In this document: one piece after another, positions 3,522 to 63,371 of the stretch
How positions within the stretch are numbered: the first letter of the stretch is position 1
Layout: the number at the start of each line of letters is the position of its first letter
IMG/VR virus record: IMGVR_UViG_3300010352_001202
Strand: one strand, 5' to 3'
DNA: 64,000 bases
Source: a virus
Taxonomy: Duplodnaviria > Caudoviricetes
Notes under the pieces: generated by a model
The model's input: only the letters and a program-made list of their open reading frames with translations
Databases searched by the model: none
What the model was told of the DNA's origin: nothing
Position numbers and translations under genes: made by a program

Positions 3522-4694
3522 ATGGCAACAAAGCTATTTGAATCAAACTGGGGCGCAACAAAAGAAGCCCTTCTAGAAGGCCTTAAGGGAACCCGTCGTC
3601 AAGCAATGGACGTTGTGTTTGAAAACACTCGTAAATACTTGGCAGAATCGGCTACCGCAGGTGCAACACAAGCTGGTAATATCGCAGTTCTTAACAAGGT
3701 AATGCTACCGTTGATCAGACGTGTCATGCCAACAGTTATTGCGAACGAAATCATGGGCGTACAGCCAATGACAGGTCCAGTTGGCCAAATCCACACTTTG
3801 CGTGTTCGTTACGCAAACACTGCTGCTGGTGTAACAGCAGGTACAGAAGCACTTGGTCCATTCGAAATTGCTAAGGCATATTCGGGTAACGAAGTTGCTG
3901 CCGATCCAGCTGCTGCTTCAACAGCACGTCTTGAAGGCGTACCAGGTAACAAGATGAGCATCCAAATCTTGAAAGAAACCGTCGAAGCTAAGACACGTAA
4001 GTTGTCGGCTCGTTGGACTTTCGAGGCTGCACAAGACGCTAATGCCATTCACGGTATTGATATCGAAGCAGAAATCATGCAAGCTCTTGCACAAGAAATC
4101 ACAGTTGAAATCGACCAAGAAATGTTATTCAAGCTAGGTGCTCTAGTACCTGTTGCTCCAACAACATTCAACCAAGCTGCCGTTTCTGGTACAGCTACAT
4201 ACGTTGGTGATGAAATGGCTGCTCTAGCAGTTATGATCAACCAGCAAGCTAACCTTATTGCTGCACGTACACGTCGTGGTGCTGCTAACTGGGCAGTTGT
4301 TTCGCCAACAGCGTTAACAATTCTTCAGTCTGCTACAACATCTTCGTTCGCACGTACAACAGAAGGTACATTCGAAGCACCTACAAACACAAAGTTTGTC
4401 GGTACATTGAATAGCACAATGCGCGTATATGTTAACCAGTATGCAAGCGATGGCGATCCAATCCTTATCGGTTACAAGGGACCTACAGAAACTGACGCAG
4501 CAGCTTACTACTGCCCATACATTCCATTGATGAGCGTTGGTCCTGTTATGGATCCACAGACATTCGAACCAGTCGTATCGTTCATGACACGTTACGGTTA
4601 CCTAGAATTGACAAATACAGCAAACAGCTTCGGTAACGCCGCAGACTATTTGAGCAAGGTTGGAATTGACAGCAGCACTTTGAAATTTTACTGA
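3522..4694 (+). CDS. gp23: Major capsid protein (T4 gp23-like)
   Basis: Motifs LIRRVMPTVIANEIMGVQPMTGPVGQIHTLR, VEAKTRKLSARWTFEAAQD, YYCPYIPL, FMTRYG. Confidence 0.96.
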   Translation: MATKLFESNWGATKEALLEGLKGTRRQAMDVVFENTRKYLAESATAGATQAGNIAVLNKVMLPLIRRVMPTVIANEIMGVQPMTGPVGQIHTLRVRYANTAAGVTAGTEALGPFEIAKAYSGNEVAADPAAASTARLEGVPGNKMSIQILKETVEAKTRKLSARWTFEAAQDANAIHGIDIEAEIMQALAQEITVEIDQEMLFKLGALVPVAPTTFNQAAVSGTATYVGDEMAALAVMINQQANLIAARTRRGAANWAVVSPTALTILQSATTSSFARTTEGTFEAPTNTKFVGTLNSTMRVYVNQYASDGDPILIGYKGPTETDAAAYYCPYIPLMSVGPVMDPQTFEPVVSFMTRYGYLELTNTANSFGNAADYLSKVGIDSSTLKFY

Positions 4695-35118: not shown

Positions 35119-35438
35119 TTGGCCCCAACAGAGTTGGGAACCAATGTTAGTGGTAGGATAGTGTGAAGATACAGGAAACGAGTTCCTGGGCCTGCACTGT
35201 AAAAAACATGGGTCGAAAGGGCGTGTTCGGGGTATAAAATCCGTGGCGGTAACGCGGAGAGTCAGAACCGGATCGTAAAGTGCATATCCACTTCAGGCGC
35301 TAACTACCGCTGAATGATCTGTTGTGTACTTTACGATAAGCATTGATCTGAGATGGGCTGAAACGCCGCAGACAGTGCTTACAAGAATATATGCATTGTT
35401 GTTACAGTCTGTATAAATATTTACAGAGGACAACAGCA

Positions 35439-35858
35439 ATGATAAAATGTGAAACATGTAGTAATGAAACTTCTAATCAGCGATTCTGTTCTTTGCGTTG
35501 TACTGTTGTATGGAATAATAAACATTCTATGACAGAAGAAACACAACGAAGTAGAGGAAAGAAAAATAGTCAAGGTACAAAAATACCGAACAATCTTTTA
35601 GATATGTCGAGTAGGACAGTTACTAAATTGATTAGAAGAATGAATATAGGTTGTAGTGTATGTGGCTGGAAAGATGCCTTATGTGATATTCATCACATAG
35701 TTCCCAAAAGAAAAGGCGGAACCAACGATAATAGCAACCTAACAATACTTTGCCCAAACCATCATAGACTCATACACGAAGGTGCAGAGTTACCAATAAA
35801 GTCAGTTACTGATCATATTGGAGAGGAATGGAGAAAGCATTACTACGCACATGAATAA
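35439..35858 (+). CDS. HNH endonuclease
   Basis: CSVCGW..DIHHIVPKRKGGTNDNSNLTILCPNHH; GAGGA SD; TATAAATA upstream. Confidence 0.88.
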   Translation: MIKCETCSNETSNQRFCSLRCTVVWNNKHSMTEETQRSRGKKNSQGTKIPNNLLDMSSRTVTKLIRRMNIGCSVCGWKDALCDIHHIVPKRKGGTNDNSNLTILCPNHHRLIHEGAELPIKSVTDHIGEEWRKHYYAHE

Positions 35859-35859
35859 T

Positions 35860-35945
35860 GGGTGTGCCGGGGAGTTGGAGATCCTCACCTGTCTGTAAAA
35901 CAGGCGCCACAGGCTGAATAGGTTCGAATCCTATAACACCCACCA
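35860..35945 (+). tRNA. tRNA-Tyr(GTA)
   Basis: CCTGT-CTGTAAA-ACAGG, long variable arm, GGTTCGAATCC, ACCA. Confidence 0.9.
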
Positions 35946-35952
35946 AGTTTAT

Positions 35953-36040
35953 GGGCTTTTAGGGAAGCGGACAAACTCACCTGCGATGTGAATGCAGGCA
36001 CCTAATGGTTTCGGTAGTTCAAATCTATCAGGGCCCACCA
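35953..36040 (+). tRNA. Atypical tRNA: GTG anticodon on a type II (Tyr-like) body
   Basis: CCTGCG-ATGTGAA-TGCAGG, long variable arm, A73-CCA, no G-1/C73. Confidence 0.6.
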
Positions 36041-36082
36041 AGTTTCGGGATAGACGGAGGGCTAAAAGAGATAAATAAGTGT

Positions 36083-36727
36083 ATGAGCACCTACTATCTC
36101 TATGTAAAAATTCATAATGTCACTGGACTAAGATATCTCGGTCAGACTAAACAAGATCCGCTGAAATATGTAGGATCGGGCATAGATTGGCTAGAACATA
36201 TCAAATGTTATGGATCGGACTTAAAGACAGAAATTATTCTTGAATCTAAATCAAAGAGCGATATTGATAATGCCGGGAGATACTATAGTAACTTCTGGAA
36301 AATTACAACATCTGCAGACGATTTTGGTAATAGAATTTGGGCAAATAGGATAAATGAAACAGGTGGTGGAGGCATTGGTGGTCGGGGAAGATTACCGGGC
36401 TTTTCACATTCCGAAGAAACCAAAGAAAAACTTAGACAAGCAAATAAATCATTTGTAATGTCCGAGGATCGTAGAAGACATTTATCTGAGATCAATACTG
36501 GAAAAACTCATACGGTAGAGACCAAGCAAAAAATTTCTAATGCCAGAAAAGGCAAACCAAGAAGTGCCGAGACTAAAGCAAAAATTTCAGAGTCATTGAA
36601 AAATAGAGTCCCAAGTAGCGCCGCCGCCCCTCAAAAGGCAGGCATTGGTTTTAACGCGAAGTATGGTTTGTTAAAACTCGCCCTTTCGAGACGCAACTAT
36701 CGTACGGTAGTCCTGAATTTAATGTAA
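36083..36727 (+). CDS. GIY-YIG homing endonuclease with NUMOD3 repeats
   Basis: YYLYVKIHNVTGLRYLGQT..YVGSG; HSEETKEKLR, GKTHTVETKQKIS, RSAETKAKIS. Confidence 0.88.
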   Translation: MSTYYLYVKIHNVTGLRYLGQTKQDPLKYVGSGIDWLEHIKCYGSDLKTEIILESKSKSDIDNAGRYYSNFWKITTSADDFGNRIWANRINETGGGGIGGRGRLPGFSHSEETKEKLRQANKSFVMSEDRRRHLSEINTGKTHTVETKQKISNARKGKPRSAETKAKISESLKNRVPSSAAAPQKAGIGFNAKYGLLKLALSRRNYRTVVLNLM

Positions 36728-36783
36728 GTATATGCCCCCGCGGAAGCAGGTGGGCGGAGATGAAAGTTCTCCAATCCTATAAT

Positions 36784-36858
36784 GGGGGCAGCAGAGGGCT
36801 GCGGAGTTGCCTTGCAAGCATCTTGTCTAGAGGGGTTCGATACCCCCGGCCTCCACCA
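36784..36858 (+). tRNA. tRNA-Ala(TGC), reduced D arm
   Basis: Loop CTTGCAA, G3-U70, ACCA. Confidence 0.8.
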
Positions 36859-36864
36859 TTTTCT

Positions 36865-36924
36865 AAAGTGTTCATTCAGCAATCCACAAAAATCAACTTT
36901 TAATTGAAAATAAAACGAACACTG
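36865..36924 (+). ncRNA. CAGCAA module 1 carrying a bare anticodon stem-loop (UUU, Lys-like)
   Basis: AGTGTTC/GAACACT stem, CAGCAA 36877-82, TCAA-CTTTTAA-TTGA. Confidence 0.75.
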
Positions 36925-36934
36925 ATTTATTCAT

Positions 36935-37010
36935 GGCGCAGTAGCATAGCGAATTATGCACCTCCCTGTCTAGGAGGCCGACGAGGGTTTGAGTCCCTTC
37001 TGCGTCGCCA
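36935..37010 (+). tRNA. tRNA-Asp(GTC)
   Basis: CCTCC-CTGTCTA-GGAGG, GCCA end. Confidence 0.85.
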
Positions 37011-37113
37011 GTTATGTGAAGAGTATCGAGCTTACCCTCATAAATACTTTTCACAGTTTAGGTAAGGTATAACGTTGCTTATAACAACTCTACGATACCC
37101 AAACACCTTCTTT

Positions 37114-37170
37114 AAAGAGAACCTACAGCAACTAAAAATTTACTGTAAATGAAACCAAATGTGTTCTCTG
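37114..37170 (+). ncRNA. CAGCAA module 2 carrying a bare anticodon stem-loop (GUA, Tyr-like)
   Basis: AGAGAAC/GTTCTCT stem, CAGCAA 37126-31, TTTA-CTGTAAA-TGAA. Confidence 0.75.
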
Positions 37171-37205
37171 TTTTGAATTTGTAAATATTTGTGTTACAAT
37201 GTGCT

Positions 37206-37619
37206 ATGGCACTCATCAAATGTACTCATTGCGGAAATGATAAAAGAACTTATGGCACAAGTGCTAATTTGTTTTGTTCACGGCAATGCGCTAACGATTT
37301 CCAATATGAACAGCGTGTAGCTGAATGGAAATTATCGGGAGAAAGTACAAGAATTAGCGGCACGCCAGGCTGGTTACGCAGATATTTTTTTGAGAAGCAA
37401 AATGGTAAATGCGCCGGATGTTTGAATGATACCTGGCGAGAACAACCCATAACTCTTGAATTAGAACATAAAGATGGTAACAGTGACCATAATAAGGAAG
37501 AGAATTTAGAACTTCTTTGTCCAAATTGTCACAGTCAGTCATCGACTTATAAAGCAAAGAATAAGGGTAATGGAAGACATTATCGAAGACAGCTTTATAA
37601 GGAAGGTAAAAGTTTTTAG
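37206..37619 (+). CDS. HNH endonuclease
   Basis: CAGC..LELEHKDGNSDHNKEENLELLCPNCHSQ. Confidence 0.88.
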   Translation: MALIKCTHCGNDKRTYGTSANLFCSRQCANDFQYEQRVAEWKLSGESTRISGTPGWLRRYFFEKQNGKCAGCLNDTWREQPITLELEHKDGNSDHNKEENLELLCPNCHSQSSTYKAKNKGNGRHYRRQLYKEGKSF

Positions 37620-38251: not shown

Positions 38252-38410
38252 AACAACGGTCCGGACAGAGATCCCTAGGATATATTTCCTCTAGACCACC
38301 ATCAAACCGCTTCCACTTGTTTTCTATTGACATATATAAGCCTAGCGGGCCAATTTTGACCTTTCCACATCACTAAATTATATAAGGATAAAAAAAGGTC
38401 TCTTCAAAAT

Positions 38411-38527
38411 GTCGCTGTAGTGTAAAGGTAGCACAACTAAAAAGGTGATCCTGGCAAGGATACATACAGCAATCTACATTCCATTACAAGGAGTAGGTCC
38501 GGTGTTCGATTCCCGCCGGCGGCACCA
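38411..38527 (+). tRNA. tRNA-Val(TAC)-like gene interrupted between D arm and anticodon arm by a 42-nt CAGCAA module (module 3)
   Basis: Acceptor GTCGCTG/CGGCGGC-ACCA, D arm to 38435, insert 38436-38477, ATTCC-ATTACAA-GGAGT, T loop TTCGATT. Confidence 0.75.
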
Positions 38528-38589: not shown

Positions 38590-39609
38590 ATGAAGAACTA
38601 CATTGGTATTAGTCGTGACCATAGCGGCTCCATGAGCATGATTGCTAATGCAGCAGCCCGCGATTACAACGACAACATCGCTTCCATTAAGGAAGAAGCC
38701 GGCTCGTTCAACATTGACACTATTGTAAGTGTCATTAAGTGTGGAACTGGTCGCCCTGCGCAAAACCGCTGGGATGTTCAGAATTCGAATGTTACGGCGC
38801 TGAAGCCGCTGACTTCGTACATTGCAGACGGTAACTGCACTCCGCTGTTCGACAGCGTGATGATGCTTATCGACCAAATGGAAAGCGTCCCTGACGCAGC
38901 TGATCCTGAAGTTTCGTTCATGGTTATGGTCGTTACTGACGGCCAGGACAATGCTTCAAACACCAAGGGTCCGCAACTGGCGCAACGCATCAAGTCGCTT
39001 CAGGCAACTGATCGTTGGACTTTCGTCTTCCGTGTTCCGAAGGGCGACAAGGCTCCTCTGGTTCGAATGGGTCTCCCGGCAGGTAACATCCTGGAATGGG
39101 AACAAACCGAACGCGGTGTTCAGCAAGCAACTGTTGCTACCAAGTCGGCTATGCGTGGTTTCTACGCTGCTCGCTCCACTGGTGCAACCAGCACTGACAA
39201 GTTCTACGCCGACATGAGCACTACCACCTTGAATGAAGTGAAGGCCGCCCTGGTTGATATTTCCAAGGAAGTGGATGTGTATGTGGTTGATACGAAGAAC
39301 GACGGTGTCTAAATCAAGGACTTTGTGCTTGCGCAAGGTGTTACCTTTACCAAGGGCTGCGCGTTCTATGAACTGAGCAAGACCGAAACTGTGCAAGAAT
39401 ACAAGCAGATCGCCATCCGTGACAAGATTACGGGCGCTGTCTACAGCGGTTTCGCAGCACGAGATTTGCTTGGTTTGCCGCACTACGGTGAAGTAAAACT
39501 TGCTCCGGGCCAGCACGGTCAGTACAACATCTTCGTCCAGTCGACCTCCATCAACCGCAAGTTGGTGAAGGGCACGAATGTGATGATTTGGACTGCTGTA
39601 ACGGTCTAA
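38590..39609 (+). pseudogene. vWA-domain protein with a single in-frame TAA (39310-39312); pseudogene, sequencing error or readthrough
   Basis: MIDAS motif DHSGSM, TPLFD, VVTDGQDNAS; frame continues past TAA (IKDFVLAQ..AFYELSKTE..) with the same codon style. Confidence 0.7.
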
Positions 39610-41126: not shown

Positions 41127-41176
41127 ACAATCCGACTTTAGCTGATGTGGTCATAGCGCCTGTCATAAATATAATT

Positions 41177-41833
41177 ATGAACTATCGGCAATTTAGTAAT
41201 AAATGGATATGTAATCTTTGTGAGCGATCGTTCTCTAGCAGACAGGCCACTACATCTCATATCTACAGGGCACATACCGAGCCCGGCGTCTCGCTTGGCG
41301 GCCATAAAAAAGGCAAACCCGCATGGAACAAAGGGCTTTCTAAGGAAACAGATGCAAGGGTGGCCGAAAATGCTATTGCGGTTTCCTTAGCAACTAAGGG
41401 TCGTCCGGGACATCCGCAAACAGAGGAATCCAAAAGAAAGATAAGTCTATCTAAGTCTATCAATAATAAGGGCGGCAGATGTAAATGGTTTGAGATTGCC
41501 GGCCAGAAAGTTCAGGGGACTTGGGAACGAGATATTACACTAAAGTTTGAAGAACTTAATATCAAATGGCAGAAGCTAAAAACAAATCAACATACATTTG
41601 ATTATGTAATGGATTCTAAAACAAGATGTTATACACCGGATTTTTATCTTCCGCAATACGGCATATACCTAGAAATAAAAGGTCGCTGGTGGGGTAGAGA
41701 TAGAGAAAAAATGGATATTGTTATGAAAACATATCCTGATAAAAAGATTGTTATTATAGAAAAACAAGATTATGAAAAGATTTTGCGAGGTGAGCTAGTG
41801 TGGTCATTCCAGCGGCTGCCTGAAGAGCAGTAG
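41177..41833 (+). CDS. PD-(D/E)XK homing endonuclease with C2H2 finger and NUMOD3-like motif
   Basis: CNLC..H..AH; AWNKGLSK; YTPDFYLP..YLEIKG. Confidence 0.82.
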   Translation: MNYRQFSNKWICNLCERSFSSRQATTSHIYRAHTEPGVSLGGHKKGKPAWNKGLSKETDARVAENAIAVSLATKGRPGHPQTEESKRKISLSKSINNKGGRCKWFEIAGQKVQGTWERDITLKFEELNIKWQKLKTNQHTFDYVMDSKTRCYTPDFYLPQYGIYLEIKGRWWGRDREKMDIVMKTYPDKKIVIIEKQDYEKILRGELVWSFQRLPEEQ

Positions 41834-41863
41834 AACCAGGTTCGATTCCTGGACCTCGCACCA
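41785..41863 (+). tRNA. tRNA-Phe(GAA), overlapping the endonuclease 3' end
   Basis: GCTGC-CTGAAGA-GCAGT, ACCA. Confidence 0.85.
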
Positions 41864-41943
41864 ACATATTGTTCGATTCCTGGAGGTCGGGCCAGGTTTA
41901 CTCTTCCTCGAGATAAATAAAAGTATAATCTCGGAGAGAAAAC

Positions 41944-42997: not shown

Positions 42998-43102
42998 TAA
43001 GGGATGGTTGCAGCAAACAAAAATTACTCTTACCATAATCAAGAGGCCGGCCCGCTGGGGGTGTGTCGTGGGTTCGAGTCCCGGCTTAGACACCTCATCC
43101 CG
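42998..43102 (+). ncRNA. CAGCAA module 4 carrying a CAU-loop hairpin and a T-arm-like hairpin
   Basis: GGGATG/CATCCC stem, CAGCAA 43011-16, CTCTT-ACCATAATC-AAGAG, GGG-TTCGAGT-CCC. Confidence 0.65.
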
Positions 43103-43116
43103 ATTTTATTTGACCG

Positions 43117-43235
43117 TTAGGTTCGTTTCAGCAAACAATATAATTCATCTTCAAAATGAAAGATCTGGGTTCGAATCCCAGCAGTAGGGTTGGTCACTAC
43201 TGTCGTCTAATGGATAGGATATAAATACGAACCTG
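43117..43235 (+). tRNA. CAGCAA module 5 enclosing a circularly permuted tRNA with UCA anticodon
   Basis: AGGTTCG/CGAACCT stem; 3' half 43144-89 (TTCAT-CTTCAAA-ATGAA, CTGGG-TTCGAAT-CCCAG, CAGTAGG-G) precedes 5' half 43196-221 (ACTACTG-TC-GTCT-AATGGATA-GGAT-A). Confidence 0.8.
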
Positions 43236-43322: not shown

Positions 43323-43329
43323 ATAGTTT

Positions 43330-43419
43330 GGTTGTTTAGCTCAGACGAGAGCACGGAAGAAACCTCTTAACAATGTTGGTCTCCGGGGTCGCAGAAGTAA
43401 TGCCCTGCAACAGCCACCA
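43330..43419 (+). tRNA. Atypical tRNA-like RNA with extended anticodon arm and abnormal T loop
   Basis: GGTTGTT/AACAGCC-ACCA acceptor, TAGCTCAGACGAGAGC D arm. Confidence 0.5.
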
Positions 43420-43426
43420 AATCGAT

Positions 43427-43931: not shown

Positions 43932-44008
43932 GCCCCCGTACGCTAATTGGTAGTGCGGTCTGATTCAAAATCATATGGTTGTAGGTTCGAATCCAACCGG
44001 GGGTACCA
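43932..44008 (+). tRNA. tRNA-Leu(CAA), short variable loop
   Basis: Loop TTCAAAA; body nearly identical to the 42917 gene. Confidence 0.8.
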
Positions 44009-44030
44009 AAAATATTACGATAAATATAGG

Positions 44031-44723
44031 ATGATCCTAAATTTAGCAAACGGTAATCTAAGCACGGTATTAGACTTTTCTATACCTACCACACTTCCCG
44101 AAGTAGGAAGTATTAACAACATATCTGTATTTTCGTCCGGCGGACTTGATTCGGGTGCATTGTTATGTTTGATAATGTCGGAACTTAAGGCAACAGGTCA
44201 GCTCGACACATTACCGGTAACCTGCTACACAGGTATAAAATACGACGGTGCAACATATTATGCATCGCGTCTGGTATCAAAGATAGCAGAACATTTTTCG
44301 TGTAACATTATTCATAACAACAATGTCGAAAACGATGTTGTAGAGACAGGCCGATTCAGATTTATTGCATCAACTGAACCCAATACCGTTGTGTATGCAG
44401 GTATCAGTCGAATGGTGCCAGAATCGGTAAAAGAATTTAAGAATAAGCTAAAGGTAAAGTATCCAAACGAATTTGGAAAATACAAGTTTCCTTTTTTGAA
44501 TATGGCAAAGCCACAGATACTAGATATCTATTATAAGCTTGGTTGTGAAGACATTATACAATACACGCATTCGTGTGTAAATTTAGCTGTAAGTAAATGC
44601 AATAATTGCTATTCATGCGAAGAGCGAGCCTGGGCATTTACAGAGTTAATGAAATCTGATACAGGGACTGTGCCACCGGATGTAGTAGACATATCCTACA
44701 ACGGCACTTGGCAAGTTTCGTAA
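44031..44723 (+). CDS. QueC-like N-type ATP pyrophosphatase
   Basis: PP-loop SGGLDS; PFLNMAK.QI; THSC..CNNCYSCEER zinc site. Confidence 0.75.
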   Translation: MILNLANGNLSTVLDFSIPTTLPEVGSINNISVFSSGGLDSGALLCLIMSELKATGQLDTLPVTCYTGIKYDGATYYASRLVSKIAEHFSCNIIHNNNVENDVVETGRFRFIASTEPNTVVYAGISRMVPESVKEFKNKLKVKYPNEFGKYKFPFLNMAKPQILDIYYKLGCEDIIQYTHSCVNLAVSKCNNCYSCEERAWAFTELMKSDTGTVPPDVVDISYNGTWQVS

Positions 44724-45774: not shown

Positions 45775-45832
45775 AAAGGTTACATTCAGCAAACAAAACT
45801 AACTTTCAATTGGTGAAAAAAACTGTAACCTG
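45775..45832 (+). ncRNA. CAGCAA module 6 carrying a bare anticodon stem-loop (UUC, Glu-like)
   Basis: AGGTTAC/GTAACCT stem, CAGCAA 45787-92, ACTAA-CTTTCAA-TTGGT. Confidence 0.75.
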
Positions 45833-47568: not shown

Positions 47569-47994
47569 ATGTATAAGAATAGTAAGAAACAAGGCGATGC
47601 CGGATTAGGACAAGCAATAGCATATTTCACTAAACTGGGATATGAAGTTGCAATTCCGCTAACCGACAGTGCCGATTGGGATCTTATTGTTGAGATTGAT
47701 AGTGCGTTGAAGAAGATACAGGTCAAGACAAGTTCTCAAATAAGAGAAGGCGTCGAGATTTTTCAGGCCGATGTTAAGGGTGGAAATAAAACTTCTTCAA
47801 CAAAGAAGAGTATACAGGAACAAGATTGGGATTTAATATTTCTTCATCATCTTGTTACTGGAAAGCAGGCTCTTATTCCCAAAACTGCATTGACCACAAA
47901 AGGTCAAATTAATCTTGGGAATAAGTATCAGCAGTATTTCATTGGGGATGTAGTCCTGTATGGAGCAGGGGGAGACTGTAAATCTCTTGCCTAA
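47569..47994 (+). CDS. PD-(D/E)XK homing-type endonuclease
   Basis: KQGDAG..YEVAIPLTD..WDLIVE..KIQVKT; 3' end runs into the tRNA-Tyr gene. Confidence 0.82.
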   Translation: MYKNSKKQGDAGLGQAIAYFTKLGYEVAIPLTDSADWDLIVEIDSALKKIQVKTSSQIREGVEIFQADVKGGNKTSSTKKSIQEQDWDLIFLHHLVTGKQALIPKTALTTKGQINLGNKYQQYFIGDVVLYGAGGDCKSLA

Positions 47995-48036: not shown

Positions 48037-48101
48037 AAAGAGTGCTTCCAGCAAACACAAAAATTTCAAAACCATTATCTTTGAAAAGAAAAAGCATTCT
48101 G
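48037..48101 (+). ncRNA. CAGCAA module 7 carrying a CAU-loop hairpin
   Basis: AGAGTGC/GCATTCT stem, CAGCAA 48049-54, TTTCAAA-ACCATTATC-TTTGAAA. Confidence 0.7.
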
Positions 48102-49237: not shown

Positions 49238-49323
49238 AAAGAATTCTTCCAGCAACATCCTATGGATAAAATTGGTTCAACTCCAATACGCGCCTGTAAC
49301 AGGGCGGGTTTAAAAGAATTCTG
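49238..49323 (+). ncRNA. CAGCAA module 8 carrying a T-arm-like and a CTGTAAC-containing hairpin
   Basis: AGAATTC/GAATTCT stem, CAGCAA 49250-55, ATTGG-TTCAACT-CCAAT. Confidence 0.7.
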
Positions 49324-50091: not shown

Positions 50092-50547
50092 ATGACAAAT
50101 AAGATTTCGTTTATAGATTTTGAAACTATATTGCCTATTTGGAGAAATAAACTTTGGCCAGACAGAACATCCGTCATCGAAAGTCATAGTGCAATGATGA
50201 TCACTCCCGGAATATACGATGCAGGTAATTTTAATTTACCTATATGGTATTATGGCTTTTACTTAGATGATATGTTGGTCGGTGTGAACAGCGTGCATGA
50301 ATGCACCGATGGGCTAATAAGGAGTCGTGGATTCTGGGTCGACGACAATTATCGTGGCAGGGGAATAGGTACACAATTGCTTGCAAGCATCGTAAATGAC
50401 ATAAAAATGCACAAATTTAAAGGCATATGGTCATATCCCCGTAAGCAGGCGTGGTCAGTGTATGAGCGTGTAGGTTTTAGATCTATTTCCGACTGGGAAG
50501 AAAGTGAGACAGGCACGAATATGTATTGTTACATGGATTTACAATGA
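50092..50547 (+). CDS. GNAT acetyltransferase
   Basis: WVDDNYRGRGIGTQLL acetyl-CoA motif; YERVGF. Confidence 0.85.
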   Translation: MTNKISFIDFETILPIWRNKLWPDRTSVIESHSAMMITPGIYDAGNFNLPIWYYGFYLDDMLVGVNSVHECTDGLIRSRGFWVDDNYRGRGIGTQLLASIVNDIKMHKFKGIWSYPRKQAWSVYERVGFRSISDWEESETGTNMYCYMDLQ

Positions 50548-52085
50548 CAGTTGATGTTTTAATTTTCACAGATTGTGCTTCGCGGGCATTTTTAAGAACA
50601 GCAGGTGCATATACGATCGCGACTGTGTTGAGAAAGAATGGCTACACCGTACAGGTTGTAGATTATTTCTTATTATCCGGTTTAGAAAGAGCTCTGGCAA
50701 CGATTGATAAATTTGTAGGCGAGAACACTCTATTTGTTGGATTTGCAACCACATTTATGAATTTAAGTGGGGTGCATTTATCCGAGTCTGCAAAAAATGA
50801 TAAAATGTTTTCATATCATGGATATGAGCGAACTGCATTCGTATTAGGTACAGCAGCATTATCGACTCGTGTACCTGTTTCTGATAATGAGATGGACCAG
50901 ATAAGAGACAGAATCAAACTAAGAAATCCTAAAACAAAGCTGGTAATGGGCGGCACGAAAGCAGACAACAGAAGTCAGCCACAAATAGATACATTTATAC
51001 TCGGGTATGCCGATAACTCAGTTATTGAGTATACGAAATTCCTTGAGGGGAAAAATCCTTTCTTTAGATACACATTAAATGAACATCATCAAATGATTGT
51101 TGACCACGACCTCGATGCATCTGGTTATGATTTTGTTCACTCAACTATCGAATATGACGAGAGCGATCTAATTAAACATAATGAGGTATTGTCATTAGAA
51201 ATTGCACGCGGTTGCATTTTCAAATGCAAGTTTTGCAATTTTAGATTAACGGGAAAAAAGAAAAACGATTACATTAAAGATAAAGAGGTAATTTATTCTG
51301 AATTAATGAATAATTATGAAAGATTTGGCACAACAAAATATTCCTTTGCTGATGATACATATAATGAATCAGTACAGAAGTTAGAACACTTTGCTGAGGT
51401 ATTTCAGAAGTTGCCCTTTAAACTAGAATTTGTTGCCTACCTAAGGCACGACCTTATTTGGCGTTATCCGGAGATGGCTGATATTCTTAGACAGAGCGGA
51501 CTAAAGGTGGCGATGTTTGGAATCGAAACACTAAATCACGAAGCCGGTAAGATTATTGGTAAAGGATTGCCACCAGAGAAAACAACCGAGTTGTTGCATT
51601 GGTTGCGCAAAGAAAAGGGTTGGGCCGGTAATATCTTAATGAATTCGGGATTTATTGTTGGACTACCTACCGAGACGGAAGATACAGTAAATAAATGGAC
51701 AGAAGAGCTTATGGATTTTAATTATCCGTTAGATTCTTTTCTAATAAATCCTCTAGGCATAACTCCGCGTTCTCCTAAATTATCAAAATCCGAATTTGAT
51801 ATAAATTACAAAGATTACGGATATTATTTTGATCCGAAGGTATCTGTGGGATGGATAAACGAACATTGGAGAATCGAGGATGTAAGAAGATTGTGTACAG
51901 TCATTGACAAATATGCTACAGAAATAGGTCGAATTAAATTATACGGATTTAGCACAATGACACTTCATAACTATGGCTATACATGGGATGATATACACAA
52001 TTCTGTATCAGCCAATTATACAAACTCCATTTTCTACGAAACTGTAAAGCAGGCAGATTCATACTATAAAGAATTATTAAAATGA
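50544..52085 (+). CDS. Radical SAM enzyme with N-terminal B12-binding-like domain
   Basis: EIARGCIFKCKFC; DDTYN; GIETLN; GFIVGLPTET. Confidence 0.88.
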   Translation: MTVDVLIFTDCASRAFLRTAGAYTIATVLRKNGYTVQVVDYFLLSGLERALATIDKFVGENTLFVGFATTFMNLSGVHLSESAKNDKMFSYHGYERTAFVLGTAALSTRVPVSDNEMDQIRDRIKLRNPKTKLVMGGTKADNRSQPQIDTFILGYADNSVIEYTKFLEGKNPFFRYTLNEHHQMIVDHDLDASGYDFVHSTIEYDESDLIKHNEVLSLEIARGCIFKCKFCNFRLTGKKKNDYIKDKEVIYSELMNNYERFGTTKYSFADDTYNESVQKLEHFAEVFQKLPFKLEFVAYLRHDLIWRYPEMADILRQSGLKVAMFGIETLNHEAGKIIGKGLPPEKTTELLHWLRKEKGWAGNILMNSGFIVGLPTETEDTVNKWTEELMDFNYPLDSFLINPLGITPRSPKLSKSEFDINYKDYGYYFDPKVSVGWINEHWRIEDVRRLCTVIDKYATEIGRIKLYGFSTMTLHNYGYTWDDIHNSVSANYTNSIFYETVKQADSYYKELLK

Positions 52086-52603
52086 AAGAAGACTCAATTC
52101 TTACTCACCTTGGCAGGGTGCTAACGCAGCAAGAAGTAACTGATGCTATGACTTATATCAAGTCTAACCGATTACTTTTTGTCAATCGTCCTTACATGTG
52201 TGATGAACAGGTAGGTGGATATCCTCTTGCATATGTATGCCAAAAATCACAAGAACTTGATAGTATTATCAAGGCATTAGAACAGGCATTGTTATCAACA
52301 AGTCATTTAGACAATACACGAATTATCGAGCGTGGCATCGGTATTTCGCCTGAGGATTTATCTTTTGATAATGTTGTTGATAGTAAAGAGATAGCACTGC
52401 TATCTAAACAGGTAAGAATCCCGCTATCGGGGATTTCAAAAATTAATGATGAACTGTTGGGACTAGGGCTTGCTTATATTGTTGATACTGTAAGCGGGTA
52501 TAGTTTCTCAGCGAGTAAAGATTCAACTCATTTGGTATTTAACTTCCTCAGTAACGATGAAGTAAGAAAACCGTGGGAACTATGGAAGAATAGAGAATTA
52601 TGA
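52082..52603 (+). CDS. Hypothetical protein
   Basis: Translationally coupled between the two radical SAM genes. Confidence 0.55.
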   Translation: MKEDSILTHLGRVLTQQEVTDAMTYIKSNRLLFVNRPYMCDEQVGGYPLAYVCQKSQELDSIIKALEQALLSTSHLDNTRIIERGIGISPEDLSFDNVVDSKEIALLSKQVRIPLSGISKINDELLGLGLAYIVDTVSGYSFSASKDSTHLVFNFLSNDEVRKPWELWKNREL

Positions 52604-54138
52604 CTGTAGATGTAATTATATTTTCTGATTGCTCTTCTGAAGCATCTATTAGATATGCAGGCGCATATACAATAGCATCTTCATTGCGCGAGGCCGGCTT
52701 CACTGTTCAGGTAGTTGATTATTTTCTGCTTACGGGATTAGAAAAAGCATATAAGATTATTGATAAATTTCTGGGTGAGAATACATTGTTTGTCGGGTTT
52801 TCTACAACATTTATGAATGTCTCGTGGGAGCATAAAAAGGCACACCAGACAGATCCGTCGATGTTTAGATTTGACAATTTTACACAGATGCAATTGGGTG
52901 CATCAACCCATAACGGTTATTCATACGGTGTGCCGATATCCGAAGATGAAATGCTTCAGATTCAGCAGTATATCAAGAATAAGAATTCTAAGACAAAACT
53001 TGTTCTCGGCGGAACAAAAGCAGATTTTACTTATCAGAAATATATTGATACATTTATCCTGGGATACGCAGATAAATCGGCAGTCGAATATGCAAAATTT
53101 CTACAAGGAAAAAATCCGTTCTTTAGGTATAGAATAAATGATAAATTGCAAATGGTCGTTGATTATGACATTGATGCCAAGTCTCACGATTTTGTCAATT
53201 CTCGTATTGAGTATGACTCTAGCGACCTTGCACGCCCAGACGAACCTTTGCCGATTGAAATTTCAAGAGGATGTATTTTTAAATGTAAATTCTGTAATTT
53301 TAGAATGATTGGCAAGAAGAAAAACGATTACATTAAAGACAAGGAAGTAATATATTCTGCGCTAATGAGTAACTATGAAAAGTTCGGTACAACAAAGTAT
53401 TCTATCACTGACGATACATGGAATGAATCTGTCGGTAAGCTCGAGATGTTTGCGGAAGTATGCCAACGATTGCCTTTTAAGATAGAATATGTTTCTTATC
53501 TAAGGCTTGACTTAATATGGCGTTATCCGGAGATGGCCGACCTCCTGAGAGAGACAGGGCTTAAAGCAACAGCATTTGGAATCGAAACACTAAATCACGA
53601 AGCTGGTAAAATTATCGGCAAGGGATTGCATCCAGAGAAAGTCAGGGAAACACTTCATACTCTTAGAGATAGCAAAGGTTGGAGAAATAATATTCTAATG
53701 TTCTCTGGATTCATCGTTGGCCTGCCTACAGAAACAAGAGACACTGTAAATAAGTGGGTAGAAGAATTAATGGACTTTAATTATCCGTTAGATGCATTTC
53801 AGTTAAATGCTTTATTTTTAGGAAACAATAAACATAAATCCGAATTTGATTTGAATTATAAGGATTATGGTTATTGGTATGATAAGAAAGTTTCTACTGG
53901 CTGGATCAATGAGCATTGGCGTGTGGAAGATGCGGGCGAGTTATCTTCAAATATGCACAATTATGGACTTAGCATTGGCCGACTAAAAGCAAATGGATTC
54001 TATTCTATGATTATGCAAAATTACGGATTTACATGGGAAGATGTACACAACACATCAATGGTCGGATATGGATCTTTATTTCAGAAGACTCTTACACATG
54101 CCAACACATACCATGAGAGATTGTTGAACGAAGTATGA
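52600..54138 (+). CDS. Radical SAM enzyme, paralog of 50544..52085
   Basis: EISRGCIFKCKFC and long identical peptides (GKKKNDYIKDKEVIYS, GIETLNHEAGKIIGKGL). Confidence 0.88.
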   Translation: MTVDVIIFSDCSSEASIRYAGAYTIASSLREAGFTVQVVDYFLLTGLEKAYKIIDKFLGENTLFVGFSTTFMNVSWEHKKAHQTDPSMFRFDNFTQMQLGASTHNGYSYGVPISEDEMLQIQQYIKNKNSKTKLVLGGTKADFTYQKYIDTFILGYADKSAVEYAKFLQGKNPFFRYRINDKLQMVVDYDIDAKSHDFVNSRIEYDSSDLARPDEPLPIEISRGCIFKCKFCNFRMIGKKKNDYIKDKEVIYSALMSNYEKFGTTKYSITDDTWNESVGKLEMFAEVCQRLPFKIEYVSYLRLDLIWRYPEMADLLRETGLKATAFGIETLNHEAGKIIGKGLHPEKVRETLHTLRDSKGWRNNILMFSGFIVGLPTETRDTVNKWVEELMDFNYPLDAFQLNALFLGNNKHKSEFDLNYKDYGYWYDKKVSTGWINEHWRVEDAGELSSNMHNYGLSIGRLKANGFYSMIMQNYGFTWEDVHNTSMVGYGSLFQKTLTHANTYHERLLNEV

Positions 54139-54968
54139 ATTACACCTTTAGTCCGTTCTCGGTTGATTACGGAAATATCGCAGAACCTGTGCTAGATTTT
54201 AAATCGGAATGCGTGAGGGCTGTACAATTAGCTCAGTCTAAAAATAAGTATAATTTTCCGTTAGTTGTTATGATGAGCGGTGGTATAGATAGTGAATTGA
54301 TAGCACAATCATTGTTAATAGCCGGTGTTGAATTTAAGTGTGTTATTGGTAAACTAATGACACGGTTATCGGATAACGATATAGTATTCAATGAGCACGA
54401 TTATCAATATGCTGTTAGATGGTGTAATGCAAATAACATAGAAGTGATCTATTGCGAAATAGATATATTCAAAGAAAATAGACTGCTGTGCGATTATGCA
54501 CTATACTCAAAGGGGTTTTCGCCACAGTATGCTTGCCACATGTTTATTATGAAGTGGTGTTCGGATAATGGTTATTTTTTCTTAGCTGGTAACGGTGAGA
54601 TGGACTTAGTTCTAAAAGATAATGAATATTACATGCTTGACGAACAGAGAGAATTCACATTGGCTAATTTCTGCAAACTATACAACCTGAGCGGTGTGTG
54701 GCAGTTCTGGAAGCAGGATGGCAGAGTAATTTCGTCATTTTTGAAATTACCTACCGTGGCCGCTCTTATGGAGAAGAAAGTAGAATCTATCTTATCTTAT
54801 AAGCATGAATGCTTTAGTGATGCATTTGTATTTGAAGGTAGAAAAAAGGCCACAGGGTTTGAAAGAATACAAGAATGGGATTATATTCATAGGACCGAAC
54901 TGAAACAAGTAAACGGCCACTTAGACGAAAAGTATTATACACCCGTTTCGCAATTTATAAAGGTATGA
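54135..54968 (+). CDS. N-type ATP pyrophosphatase (asparagine-synthase-like) protein
   Basis: VMMSGGIDSE PP-loop; C-terminal RKKATGFE. Confidence 0.7.
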   Translation: MNYTFSPFSVDYGNIAEPVLDFKSECVRAVQLAQSKNKYNFPLVVMMSGGIDSELIAQSLLIAGVEFKCVIGKLMTRLSDNDIVFNEHDYQYAVRWCNANNIEVIYCEIDIFKENRLLCDYALYSKGFSPQYACHMFIMKWCSDNGYFFLAGNGEMDLVLKDNEYYMLDEQREFTLANFCKLYNLSGVWQFWKQDGRVISSFLKLPTVAALMEKKVESILSYKHECFSDAFVFEGRKKATGFERIQEWDYIHRTELKQVNGHLDEKYYTPVSQFIKV

Positions 54969-54969
54969 T

Positions 54970-55551
54970 ATGTTAGCTAATCTTTTTGCATTCGGAAACA
55001 GAAAATATATAAACAATGCGGTAGTTACTGCGGATATCCTATCTTATATTACATCTACATACGGCGATGTAAAGAATTTCAGGTTGCATTTTAGAAAACC
55101 TTTTTTCACACAAGGAAATCTTGTTGTGGCTCCGTATAAGCTCGATGGGCATTTTGTAGGACAATTTGAAATTGATTATGTTCCTATGTACTTTGCATAT
55201 TCGCCCACCGACATTCCTTTAGAGACAAAAGAAGTATCTGTAGATGATGTGCAGGCAGATATAAATATTTTCAGCATGTGTTATTTTGTTGCTGAAAACT
55301 GCCACCAGGCTGTATTGCGTGCATTTGAAAAAAACTATGGTCCGCGAACGGCAGATGATAAATCTATATTCGTAATATACGAAATTCCGAACACATCAGT
55401 GTTCACAAAATTAATACAGGAAAAAAGAATACCAAACCTTACAATTTCTGAACCAGAAATAACTGCTGAACGAAAGTTTAAATTATCTGTATCAGTAGAT
55501 GGAGAATTGTTAGGTTATAGATATAATACAGTAAAGAAGTTTATCTTATGA
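54970..55551 (+). CDS. Hypothetical protein, paralog of 57903..58484
   Basis: MLAN.F..G.R.Y.NNAVV..FRKPF..QG shared. Confidence 0.65.
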   Translation: MLANLFAFGNRKYINNAVVTADILSYITSTYGDVKNFRLHFRKPFFTQGNLVVAPYKLDGHFVGQFEIDYVPMYFAYSPTDIPLETKEVSVDDVQADINIFSMCYFVAENCHQAVLRAFEKNYGPRTADDKSIFVIYEIPNTSVFTKLIQEKRIPNLTISEPEITAERKFKLSVSVDGELLGYRYNTVKKFIL

Positions 55552-56408
55552 AATATTGGGGCGAAAAAGCAGATACACACATTCGCCTGTGTGACACAAA
55601 TGTTTATCAGGGTTATCCCTGTGTCTCGGGAAAAGTTAACGAACACGGATATGTAGACGCACCGTTAGGTAAGAGTGATGTGCTTTATATGGGAACATGC
55701 GATATAATGTCTTCTGTTCCCGTTCCCGAACAGAGATGGGTGGCATTATTGCATAACAAGAAATATTCTAGTTTGCCGTTTATGACTATCGGTTCATCGG
55801 CTGCAGGATTGCCATCTATGGTTCGTAGGCTGCATTCATATGTGTCTAATTATGGTGCTCCTAAGAAACTATTCTTAACTGTTGCTAGATTTGAAGGTTA
55901 CGAATATGTAAACAAATCCGGCAAATGCTACAATGTGAATAGCAGAGTTGGCACCCCTCAATTTCTGAAGAGAAGAGAAATGCTTTCGGATGAGGAATTC
56001 AGCACTTGGCTTCTGCAGGTAAGCAATTACAAAAGGTTGTACAATATTCAGAATAATCAATACATTCTGGAAGAACGGTTTGCATTTATCGAAACCCTAT
56101 GTAAAGCCTATGGCATAGAAATGCAGTGGACCTTTAATTTATCTGATGCGTGTATTGTTGCTATGCATAGAAATATATCTATATTTGAAAATATTTCTTC
56201 CTTTATGAAAGATGCATTTGTTGGATTAGTAAACATAGAAGACGACATGCCCGACAGATCCATGGGATTAAAAACTCATAATAATATCTTCAATATGTTT
56301 ATGAATCCATGCAGCTGGAATTTCAAGCAGCTTGCAGAACAGGCCGAAAATAACTTTAAATGGCTAGAAGAAAAATACCCTGGCAACTTAATAAAGAATG
56401 AGGACTAA
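55548..56408 (+). CDS. Hypothetical protein (possibly SGNH-like), paralog of 58481..59341
   Basis: GTCD, MVRRL, RFEGYEYVNKSGK, NNQYILEERF shared. Confidence 0.6.
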   Translation: MKYWGEKADTHIRLCDTNVYQGYPCVSGKVNEHGYVDAPLGKSDVLYMGTCDIMSSVPVPEQRWVALLHNKKYSSLPFMTIGSSAAGLPSMVRRLHSYVSNYGAPKKLFLTVARFEGYEYVNKSGKCYNVNSRVGTPQFLKRREMLSDEEFSTWLLQVSNYKRLYNIQNNQYILEERFAFIETLCKAYGIEMQWTFNLSDACIVAMHRNISIFENISSFMKDAFVGLVNIEDDMPDRSMGLKTHNNIFNMFMNPCSWNFKQLAEQAENNFKWLEEKYPGNLIKNED

Positions 56409-56410
56409 TA

Positions 56411-57376
56411 ATGATCCACAGAAATTATTATACCTGTGGTTTCAACGCAAATTCGAGTCAATGTATTCGAACTGATATATCGGATAAGTGGAGTATAAAT
56501 TTTGATACTAAGGTTATAGAGAAAAGACCTCTAAAAACATTTCGAGAAGAGGTATTACATTCTTGCGAATTAATATATGAAGAGTTCGGCAAATACACAC
56601 CGAAACTAAATTTGTACTTTAGCGGCGGCATGGATTCCGAATGCATGCTTCGTAGTTTTGTAGAATTAGGTATACCTGTAAATCCTATAGTTATTACTCA
56701 TTATTACAGTCCGTTTGCTGACGAAACATTAAATGCTATGCGAGTATGCAACGAACTTTCGGTTAAACCGTTAATCTTTGATTTGAATCTTAGGGAATTA
56801 TACAGTAATAAGAAATTGTATGAGTTAGGTATAAAGTATCAATCGCCAAGACTAGGCATGTTAGAATTATTACATGTTATGGAACAAATTTCTGAACCTA
56901 GTGTATTAGCCGACGATATACAGATGCTTCACATTTCGTCAGATAAGAATTTACTGAATATAAATGAAACTGATTTTTTAGAGTGGATGTATGAAATACG
57001 GGAGGACGAGGACGGTGTTTTCTACAGGTATGAATGTATTACCGGAATACCGACAATTTCTGACTTCTTTAGGTATACACCGCAATCTTGGGCTTCGATG
57101 ATTCTCACCGAAGATATAAAGGACATTATCTTCAATTATAGAGGAAAGGCTTCTGCAACATCGACAAAAAATACAATGATGGCCCGAGAATTTAATGTAC
57201 TGTGGAGGCAAAAGACGGGTGTATTTTTCTCCCCTCAGCATTGGGAAATCAGAAACAGAATTAAGCATGATTTAGAAAATGAGTTATATCCATTTTCAAC
57301 AGCATTAATTACATACGAAAAGTTATTACAATTATTAGGATATCATTATGCTCTGCAGAATACTAACACAAAGTGA
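56411..57376 (+). CDS. N-type ATP pyrophosphatase-like protein, distant paralog of 54135..54968
   Basis: LYFSGGMDSE PP-loop; C-terminal RQKTG. Confidence 0.68.
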   Translation: MIHRNYYTCGFNANSSQCIRTDISDKWSINFDTKVIEKRPLKTFREEVLHSCELIYEEFGKYTPKLNLYFSGGMDSECMLRSFVELGIPVNPIVITHYYSPFADETLNAMRVCNELSVKPLIFDLNLRELYSNKKLYELGIKYQSPRLGMLELLHVMEQISEPSVLADDIQMLHISSDKNLLNINETDFLEWMYEIREDEDGVFYRYECITGIPTISDFFRYTPQSWASMILTEDIKDIIFNYRGKASATSTKNTMMAREFNVLWRQKTGVFFSPQHWEIRNRIKHDLENELYPFSTALITYEKLLQLLGYHYALQNTNTK

Positions 57377-62568: not shown

Positions 62569-62997
62569 TTGCCAAAAAGTAAAGGAATAAGAGAATCATA
62601 TCGATTTGCTCGGGAGGCCGCTCGTATCGCGGGAAATAAATTCTATATCGGTCAAATCTGTAAGAAACATCCGGAATTGTTAGGCCAACGGCAGGTTAAT
62701 AATTGTATCTGTATTGAGTGTAGAAAAGAATATTCAAGACTGCAAAGTACTGGATTTTCGGTAGAATTATTTAATTTGGTATTAAAGCAACAAGAAAATA
62801 GTTGTGCTATATGCAGAGATAAATTTGATAATACTGATGCACACGCAGACCATAATCATGTAACTAAGCAACCACGCGGAATACTGTGCCGAAAATGTAA
62901 TTTAATGATAGGGTTTGCACGAGATAATCCGGAAATTTTACAAAATGCTATAGAATATCTTGCTAAACCAGACCTAATTTTTGGTTGTGATAAATAA
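62569..62997 (+). CDS. Endonuclease VII-like HNH nuclease
   Basis: QENSCAIC..HADHNHVTKQPRGILCRKCNLMIG..DN. Confidence 0.85.
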   Translation: MPKSKGIRESYRFAREAARIAGNKFYIGQICKKHPELLGQRQVNNCICIECRKEYSRLQSTGFSVELFNLVLKQQENSCAICRDKFDNTDAHADHNHVTKQPRGILCRKCNLMIGFARDNPEILQNAIEYLAKPDLIFGCDK

Positions 62998-63029
62998 AAA
63001 TATATATTATAGTTTTAGTTATTGTTGTA

Positions 63030-63350
63030 ATACGGACTGATTCAAAGGATTCAAGACGCGGGTTCGATTCCCGCCGGCTCCACCATTAAGCACATTTGCC
63101 GAATGTTCTTAATAATGGGGCCGACCAGGTTTCGATTGGGTCGCGGAGAGGATGATACGCAACACGCCAGGCGATCGGCGTTAATGAAGCAAAACTCTGT
63201 AAATGCAAACGCAAATACATTCGAGACAGTAGCCCTTGACCTTTCAGCTCTTGCTGACAGCGATATGGCTCTTGCTGCTTAATACCCAGCATACTCCGGG
63301 GCTGGTTAGCCTTGTAACCCAATAACCTTATAGGGACTTCGGTCCCTATA
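63030..63350 (+). ncRNA. ssrA: Two-piece (circularly permuted) tmRNA
   Basis: Acceptor piece ends GACGCGGGTTCGATTCCCGCCGGCTCCACCA (63085); hairpin spacer; coding piece starts GGGGCCGA (63117); tag ANANTFETVALDLSALADSDMALAA* (63205-63282). Confidence 0.92.
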
Positions 63351-63371
63351 ATTATGACTTTTATTTCAAGG

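What the first reader, a model, noticed from the sequence alone, without database searches (positions are those of the whole stretch)
38411..38527. tRNA-Val interrupted at position 26/27 by the CAGCAA module in reversed (intron-like) order
Seen: removing 38436-38477 gives a cloverleaf with UAC anticodon and CCA. The insert has the module's halves swapped (A-rich, GTGATCCTG, short loop, AGGATAC-ATA-CAGCAA, linker), the circular permutation of the other copies. The breakpoint between D arm and anticodon arm matches that of the permuted tRNA at 43117. Known: bacterial tRNA introns are large self-splicing group I/II; short enzyme-spliced introns are archaeal/eukaryotic. Inference: a 42-nt intron of a new type, or an unspliced appendage that turns the tRNA into a decoy.
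Basis: partly seen in the sequence, partly recalled or inferred. Interest (0 to 1): 0.78.

Follow-up and report, generated by a model that had tools for sequence, protein, structure and literature searches.

The report
tRNA-shaped phage RNA with Ro handle
This "interrupted tRNA-Val" is a real, conserved small-RNA gene of giant phages, but the 42-base insert is most likely not an intron: it looks like a permanent docking handle for a Ro60-like ring protein, making the RNA a tRNA-shaped, Y-RNA-like molecule whose anticodon is free to change.

Summary
Observation confirmed, with a corrected site. In 46 homologues, covariation puts the insert between tRNA positions 28/29 (window 38438-38479), not 26/27: 44/46 versus 6/46 perfect stems. 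The insert is a loop-closed circular permutation of the stem+CAGCAA module found six or seven more times in the window. It is probably not spliced. No BHB motif (0/46) and no splicing endonuclease were found; 15/46 loops are 8-9 nt; near-identical bodies differ in amino acid or loop size in 26/46 pairs versus 3/619 for ordinary tRNAs; sister RNAs have no anticodon arm at all. The body appears to descend from tRNA-Thr(GGU). The module tracks a DUF2828 protein whose model has the Ro60 fold (9/9 versus 0/5 near-complete genomes; four of the five negatives encode canonical TROVE/Ro60 instead). In two cultured phages the same RNA lies just downstream of that gene. This window's contig (26% complete) lacks the gene; a phage with a 98%-identical capsid has it. 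Best reading: an unspliced YrlA-like tRNA mimic with free CCA end, acting in anti-defence or tRNA repair. Binding and function are inferred. The module closely resembles Dictyostelium Class I RNA. The scan noted this family before on other genomes.

The parts
38411..38527 (+). whole 117-nt tRNA-shaped RNA (linear form, encoded CCA end)
38411..38434 (+). acceptor 5' strand (38411-38417) and D arm (38420-38434)
38436..38437 (+). tRNA positions 27-28; pair with 38494 and 38493 (proximal 2 bp of the anticodon stem)
   Evidence: covariation in 36/36 rows; junction test
38438..38479 (+). 42-nt insert at 28/29: A-rich linker, module hairpin, CAGCAA, linker
38445..38463 (+). module stem closed by a TG-NN-AA hexaloop (the free modules' two ends joined)
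38467..38472 (+). CAGCAA motif, proposed contact for the Ro60-like protein
   Evidence: nearly invariant; 183 forward modules versus 0-2 for control motifs
38480..38492 (+). distal 3 bp of the anticodon stem and loop A32-U33-UAC-A37-A38; the triplet varies across the family
38499..38527 (+). T arm with bulged U, acceptor 3' strand, A73 and CCA
36866..36924 (+). forward module carrying a Lys(UUU)-type anticodon hairpin
37115..37170 (+). forward module carrying a Tyr(GUA)-type anticodon hairpin
42999..43102 (+). probable forward module with larger T-loop-containing cargo (seen by eye; missed by the strict detector; ends approximate)
43118..43235 (+). forward module carrying a circularly permuted tRNA with UCA anticodon (YrlA-like order)
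45776..45832 (+). forward module carrying a Glu(UUC)-type hairpin; best RF01414 match (36 bits, cut-off 41.5)
48038..48101 (+). forward module with hairpin cargo
49239..49323 (+). forward module with T-arm-like cargo

Best explanation
The 117-nt RNA is an unspliced tRNA mimic. Shown from sequence: a tRNA body, apparently derived from tRNA-Thr(GGU), keeps acceptor, D and T arms and CCA; its anticodon stem is opened on the 5' strand after two base pairs, and a stem+CAGCAA module branches off there. Inferred: host RNase P and 3' trimming cut it from the tRNA-cluster transcript; the module is the handle for the phage's DUF2828 Ro60-fold protein, as the Y-RNA stem is for Ro60/Rsr; the particle shows a tRNA elbow, a CCA end and a dispensable, changeable anticodon loop to tRNA-recognising proteins. 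Most likely role (about 60% given the above): bait or scaffold against tRNA-cutting defences and for tRNA repair during infection; otherwise a tether to an RNA-decay enzyme such as PNPase. Origin: tandem duplication of a forward module that carried a permuted tRNA, the spacer between copies becoming the hexaloop. A nick in that loop would give the same two-piece particle as RNase P-cut YrlA.
For: Not a decoding tRNA: bodies >=88% identical differ in amino acid or loop size in 26/46 pairs versus 3/619 ordinary tRNA pairs from the same loci (pairs not independent); L232/L238 are 98% identical yet GTC versus GTT; loops are 8-9 nt in 15/46; six sister RNAs have only 9-13 nt between motif and T stem, so no anticodon arm. 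No splicing signal: BHB 0/46 at five junctions, EndA 0/20 records with archaeal controls positive, linkers of variable length. Partner: DUF2828 in 9 of 14 near-complete records, all 9 with the module, 0 of the 5 without; four of those five encode canonical TROVE, none of the nine does. The DUF2828 model (pLDDT 80) has Ro60 proteins as its top 13 Foldseek hits and Z 17.9 over 397 residues to 9kop. Modules lie within 600 nt upstream of 6/12 DUF2828 genes. The same interrupted RNA lies about 0.6 kb after the gene in Cronobacter phage S13 and about 0.2 kb after a DUF7788/vWA gene in BUCT-ZZ01. G016, capsid 98% identical to this phage, has the gene. Bas63 gp130, Ro60-like, counters the Ppl defence. 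Tandem forward modules joined by TG-NN-AA exist (L169, L216, L228). Insert-free genes with this A32 arm are tRNA-Thr(GGT) in 3 of 4 scan hits and in one bacterial genome.
Against: No binding, expression or processing was shown. The window's own contig has no DUF2828 (26% complete). The co-occurrence set is small, related and selected (positives mostly found through the RNA). Removing the insert at 28/29 gives a perfect 5-bp stem and a cloverleaf fold, ARAGORN such products, and the 28/29 site recurs in unrelated bodies (L195, L227, L236, L248). The four nearest relatives keep Val triplets (TAC, GAC, GAC, CAC) and none of 13 triplets has A34, so something may still read the loop. The motif is not YrlA's GNCGAAN0-1G and RF02553 does not match this RNA.
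Confidence: 0.72

Rival explanations
1. The insert is a new kind of short, protein-spliced tRNA intron at 28/29: the module recruits DUF2828 plus a nuclease, RtcB seals the exons, and a working tRNA is released.
For: Removal gives a perfect stem in 44/46 and ARAGORN calls in 43/46; the site recurs in unrelated bodies, some with canonical Lys or Asn loops (L236, second gene of L319); two genes of BUCT-ZZ01 share an identical insert in different bodies, as if copied; RtcB in 4 of 9 DUF2828 genomes, 0 of 5 others.
Against: No BHB, no EndA; variable linkers; 8-9-nt loops; amino-acid switching on unchanged bodies would make mis-decoding tRNAs; sister RNAs with no anticodon to restore; no insert-free allele with these anticodons in viral or metagenome scans; RtcB absent from G030 and G041, near-complete genomes with this RNA; free modules are not introns.
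Confidence: 0.12
2. The RNA stays unspliced but is charged and used on the ribosome as a protected adaptor, the handle lying outside the decoding site.
For: 7-bp acceptor and CCA in nearly all members; the two parts of the anticodon stem could stack; Val triplets kept in the nearest clade; G73 in 7/10 GTC members versus 3/21 others.
Against: G73 follows the clade as much as the triplet; bulged T stem in this clade; 8-9-nt loops; a 42-nt branch plus a 50-kDa ring on the anticodon stem should not fit the A site (inference).
Confidence: 0.08
3. A decayed tRNA hit by a selfish, mobile repeat; no function.
For: Labile loop, weak T stem, many G-U pairs; the whole RNA does not fold better than shuffles (z -1.35).
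Against: Compensatory changes in acceptor, D, 27-43/28-42 and module stems; synteny; link to DUF2828; 183 modules.
Confidence: 0.04
4. The module is a small ribozyme (self-cleaving or self-splicing) that processes tRNA-cluster transcripts.
For: Occurs in both circular permutations and between tRNAs, as some small ribozymes do.
Against: One helix and a six-base motif only; no ribozyme family matched even at E 10; tied to a protein family; Dictyostelium look-alikes are protein-bound, with an unstructured motif (PMC7919456).
Confidence: 0.04

Closest known systems
YrlA, the tRNA-like Y RNA bound by bacterial and phage Ro60/Rsr (Rfam RF02553; Chen et al. 2014, PMC4201824; phiLo Ro60-Yrl, PMC12135203)
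   Same: tRNA D, T and acceptor domain joined to a protein-binding stem at the anticodon-arm position; encoded beside a Ro60-fold gene; M. smegmatis YrlA gains a free acceptor end with CCA after RNase P cleavage. Forward modules beside DUF2828 genes match the tRNA part of RF02553 below cut-off.
   Different: Chain ends are at the acceptor stem and the handle is loop-closed; motif is CAGCAA, not GNCGAAN0-1G; a remnant anticodon hairpin is kept; the partner is DUF2828/DUF7788, not TROVE; binding untested.
Dictyostelium Class I RNA (Rfam RF01414; Kjellin et al. 2021, PMC7919456)
   Same: Short stem of free sequence, start AAG, end CUGU, conserved motif next to the 5' strand, variable interior; phage flanks are AAG/TAG and CTGT/CTGA; five window modules score 22-36 bits.
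   Different: All scores are below the 41.5-bit cut-off; no DUSE promoter context; tRNA-derived cargo; this copy is permuted; known partner there is the RRM protein Rnp1A.
Short enzyme-spliced tRNA introns of archaea and eukaryotes, including non-canonical sites
   Same: Short insert whose removal restores a cloverleaf.
   Different: No BHB (0/46), no EndA, and the restored product's identity is not conserved.
'Enigmatic' tRNA introns of Lak megaphages (Devoto et al. 2019, PMC6784885)
   Same: Inserts in jumbo-phage tRNA genes with no known splicing route.
   Different: Those keep a fixed tRNA identity and have intron-free alleles; their sequences were not compared here.

Membership tests
YrlA / bacterial Y RNA | tRNA-like domain with D, T and acceptor stems | tested here: met
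YrlA / bacterial Y RNA | GNCGAAN0-1G motif in a stem formed by the 5' and 3' ends; match to RF02553 | tested here: not met
   motif is CAGCAA, stem is loop-closed; no RF02553 match in this contig
YrlA / bacterial Y RNA | encoded with a Ro60 orthologue | tested here: inconclusive
   Ro60-fold DUF2828 in relatives, adjacent in S13; absent from this 26%-complete contig; not the TROVE family
YrlA / bacterial Y RNA | physical binding to the Ro protein | not testable with these tools
   needs pull-down or gel shift
Dictyostelium Class I RNA | terminal stem with AAG start, CUGU end and adjacent motif | tested here: met
   for the forward modules; permuted in this copy
Dictyostelium Class I RNA | RF01414 gathering score 41.5 | tested here: not met
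   best 36 bits
Archaeal/eukaryal enzyme-spliced tRNA intron | BHB or BHL motif at the junctions | tested here: not met
   0/46 at junctions 26/27 to 30/31, central helix plus at least one flank required
Archaeal/eukaryal enzyme-spliced tRNA intron | EndA/SEN endonuclease available | tested here: not met
   PF01974 in 0/20 phage records, controls positive; host genome unknown
Archaeal/eukaryal enzyme-spliced tRNA intron | spliced product in vivo | tested here: inconclusive
   only assembled contigs of a relative available; they carry the insert
Group I / II self-splicing intron | catalytic core of several hundred bases | tested here: not met
   39-54 nt, one helix; no Rfam match
Decoding tRNA-Val | conserved anticodon and 7-nt loop on a conserved body | tested here: not met
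   13 triplets, 8-9-nt loops, 26/46 close pairs differ

The most novel reading that the evidence does not exclude
The module is a new class of 39-54-nt tRNA intron at position 28/29, recognised through its CAGCAA handle by a Ro60-fold protein and sealed by RtcB, giving phages a conditional, anticodon-switchable tRNA supply: protein-based tRNA splicing in the bacterial world.
Probability: 0.12. Interest if true: 0.9.

Novelty: new variant of a known kind. Interest (0 to 1): 0.62.

Why it matters
If the best reading holds, this is a second, uncatalogued Ro/Y-RNA system: a DUF2828 ring protein found in about 700 deposited phage records that appears to replace canonical Ro60, with RNAs that hang tRNA parts on one handle. 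The linear form is a Y-like RNA with a true CCA end and a changeable anticodon loop, a layout I found in no Rfam family and in none of the papers searched. It gives a candidate RNA partner for the anti-Ppl protein gp130 of Bas63, and a testable idea for the orphan Class I RNAs of Dictyostelium, thought to be confined to social amoebae. It can be tested in cultured phages (Cronobacter S13, BUCT-ZZ01, Vibrio nt-1). It also warns that such genes are annotated as tRNA-OTHER, tRNA-Ser or intron-bearing tRNAs.

Tried and rejected
First loose pattern scan of viral contigs: 117 hits, all chance. blastn of the window RNA against cultured phages: nothing full-length. Bacterial and archaeal genome scan for the loop-closed module: 29 hits, all tRNA-Ser(GCU) or chance; one exact pattern only, so absence from cells is not shown. 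L205 is an ordinary tRNA-Ser and was discarded. RNA runs X1-X3 hold only relatives at a small share; a contig in X2/X3 (one sample) crosses 38408-38527 with the insert in place and no joint skips it, but these are assembled contigs, may be DNA or precursor, and drop rare forms: no evidence either way. A32 as proof of non-function was dropped: rare in ordinary tRNAs (9/1559) but natural in tRNA-Thr(GGU). In one search my T-stem columns were out of register; that helix's figures were not used. phmmer of DUF2828 against PDB found nothing; only fold search showed Ro60. Single-sequence folding of the RNA is uninformative. Paper searches for the motif, for Class I RNA in phage and for DUF2828 found no description. 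Whether Dictyostelium's unnamed Class I partner DDB_G0281243 is a DUF2828 protein could not be checked.

Full report
Setting. The window is part of a T4-like jumbo phage (Gp23 capsid at 3522-4694) with about 30 tRNA genes and a permuted, betaproteobacterial-type tmRNA. The contig is 99 kb, 26% complete. Its capsid is 98% and 95% identical to those of two complete 385- and 365-kb genomes, G016 and G002.

The observation. Bases 38411-38527 form a tRNA body with a 42-nt insert. The insert holds a hairpin with a TG-NN-AA loop followed by three bases and CAGCAA. The free copies in the window (36866, 37115, 43118, 45776, 48038, 49239, probably 42999) read AAG/TAG, stem, CAGCAA, A-rich linker, cargo, linker, stem, CTG. 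The insert is therefore the same element with its two ends joined in a loop. The module is real: 183 distinct forward copies in 77 loci, against 0-2 for three scrambled motifs.

Family and true site. Relatives fetched through the neighbouring gene carry the same RNA at the same place. Two pattern scans enlarged the set; 46 distinct members share the arm CC-loop-GG-A. Testing each junction for Watson-Crick pairing of positions 27-29 with 41-43 gave perfect stems in 6/46 (26/27), 24/46 (27/28), 44/46 (28/29) and 36/46 (29/30). On an independent alignment, pairs 27-43 and 28-42 are formed in 36/36 rows with 11 and 18 double-sided changes, and acceptor, D and module stems also covary. So the insert is 38438-38479. 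This pairing is needed whether or not the insert is removed, so it locates the site but does not decide splicing. The permuted RNA at 43118 keeps its whole arm 3' of CAGCAA, so the two breaks differ by one or two bases.

Is it a tRNA-Val? No. The 31 members with 7-nt loops show 13 triplets; 8 have 8-nt and 7 have 9-nt loops. Bodies at least 88% identical differ in amino acid or loop size in 26/46 pairs, against 3/619 for ordinary tRNAs from the same loci; at 92%, 15/26 against 2/295 (pairs are not independent, but the gap is about a hundredfold). All 31 have A32-U33. Insert-free genes with this arm were found four times in the viral and metagenome collections, three of them tRNA-Thr(GGT), and once more as tRNA-Thr(GGT) in a bacterial genome. 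The family thus probably descends from tRNA-Thr(GGU); none of the 31 keeps GGT. Some constraint remains: no triplet starts with A, and the four nearest relatives have TAC, GAC, GAC and CAC.

Is it spliced? Against: no bulge-helix-bulge in 46 members at five junctions; no tRNA intron endonuclease in 20 phage records; insert 39-54 nt with variable linkers; too small for group I or II and no Rfam match; six sister RNAs in which the module replaces the anticodon arm outright, and others (S13 'tRNA-Ser', L246) where it sits beyond a full stem with no normal loop. For: removal restores a clean cloverleaf; the 28/29 site recurs in unrelated bodies; BUCT-ZZ01 has one insert sequence in two bodies; RtcB is present in four of nine genomes. 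The only RNA data are contigs of a relative that carry the insert and decide nothing. I put splicing at about 12%.

What the module is for. Among 14 near-complete records, the nine with the module (seven by sub-threshold RF01414 hits, two by the loop-closed form) all encode DUF2828 and the five without do not. Four of those five encode canonical TROVE/Ro60, none of the nine does. The set is small, related and selected, so the nominal p-values (0.0005, 0.005) overstate it. The DUF2828 protein from the record holding the nearest RNA relative (L198, 95% identical) folds with pLDDT 80 and matches Ro60 structures first: 13 of 13 Foldseek hits at E<=0.001, Z 17.9 to Thermus phage Ro60 against about 10 for plain vWA domains. 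Forward modules lie within 600 nt upstream of 6 of 12 such genes, and some carry a T-acceptor-D domain that partly matches YrlA. In cultured phage S13 this very subfamily lies about 0.6 kb behind the gene and is annotated tRNA-OTHER; BUCT-ZZ01 and nt-1 carry it too. The gene is not on the window's own contig but is in G016 and G002.

Mechanism. Shown: anatomy, covariation, loop lability, co-occurrence, protein fold. Inferred: maturation like a tRNA; binding of the handle by the ring protein; display of elbow, CCA end and loop. By analogy, YrlA mimics tRNA and tethers Rsr to PNPase (PMC4201824), phage Ro60 binds Y-like RNAs and damps host PNPase (PMC12135203), and the Ro60-like gp130 of Bas63 counters the Ppl defence (10.1101/2024.10.10.617714). 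Short forward modules mostly carry anticodon-like hairpins, most often Lys(UUU) (25/68, possibly inflated by T-runs), a known target of anticodon nucleases such as PrrC (own knowledge). A bait or repair-scaffold role fits best, but is not shown. Tandem forward modules joined by exactly TG-NN-AA exist (found by a pattern with that spacing, so this shows existence only), which gives a simple route from the permuted to the linear form.

Comparison and verdict. It works like YrlA but fails YrlA's motif and model, has the opposite chain topology and a different protein family. The forward module shares start, end, stem and motif with Dictyostelium Class I RNA (PMC7919456) yet scores below the cut-off; homology is plausible, untested. 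I found no description in the papers searched. New variant of a known kind; interest 0.62. The scan has reported this family on other genomes; those notes are not counted as support.

Noticed in passing
window 38590-39609: The vWA-like gene after the RNA looks like one reading frame broken by a single in-frame TAA at 39310-39312; the next ORF (39325) is in the same frame. No Pfam hit. It sits in tRNA clusters of many jumbo phages.
   Followed up: partly
window 41132-41894: A tRNA-like 5' part (41132-41164) and a matching T-loop/acceptor/CCA 3' part (about 41870-41894) enclose an endonuclease ORF (41147-41833, Phage_endo_I) and a tRNA-Phe: a tRNA split by a ~700-nt endonuclease insertion.
   Followed up: no
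window 43329-43420: tRNA-shaped RNA with D arm and CCA, a long insert in the anticodon arm and an atypical 10-nt loop in place of the T loop; not called by ARAGORN; similar sequence in L127 and in runs X2/X3.
   Followed up: no
window 43118-43235: The permuted tRNA has a UCA (opal) anticodon here but other triplets in relatives (GTA in L119 and L159); its 9-nt acceptor-closing loop is conserved.
   Followed up: partly
window 62971-63354: Two-piece (permuted) tmRNA of betaproteobacterial type, a hint at the host.
   Followed up: no
G005, G008, G012, G017 versus G002, G016, G021, G029, G030, G036, G040, G041, G048: TROVE/Ro60 and DUF2828 were mutually exclusive in these near-complete phage genomes.
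   Followed up: yes
L313, L317, L318, L319: Motif variants (CCGCAA, CAGCA, CGGCAA, CTGCAA) occur next to DUF2828-type genes or in phages that encode one, so exact CAGCAA scans undercount the family.
   Followed up: partly
window 43947-44723 and 50526-57376: QueC-like, B12-radical SAM and HUP-domain genes flank the tRNA cluster, possibly a tRNA or DNA modification island.
   Followed up: no
window 35391-37619 and 47569-47994: Several free-standing HNH, NUMOD3 and PD-(D/E)XK endonuclease genes lie between tRNAs.
   Followed up: no
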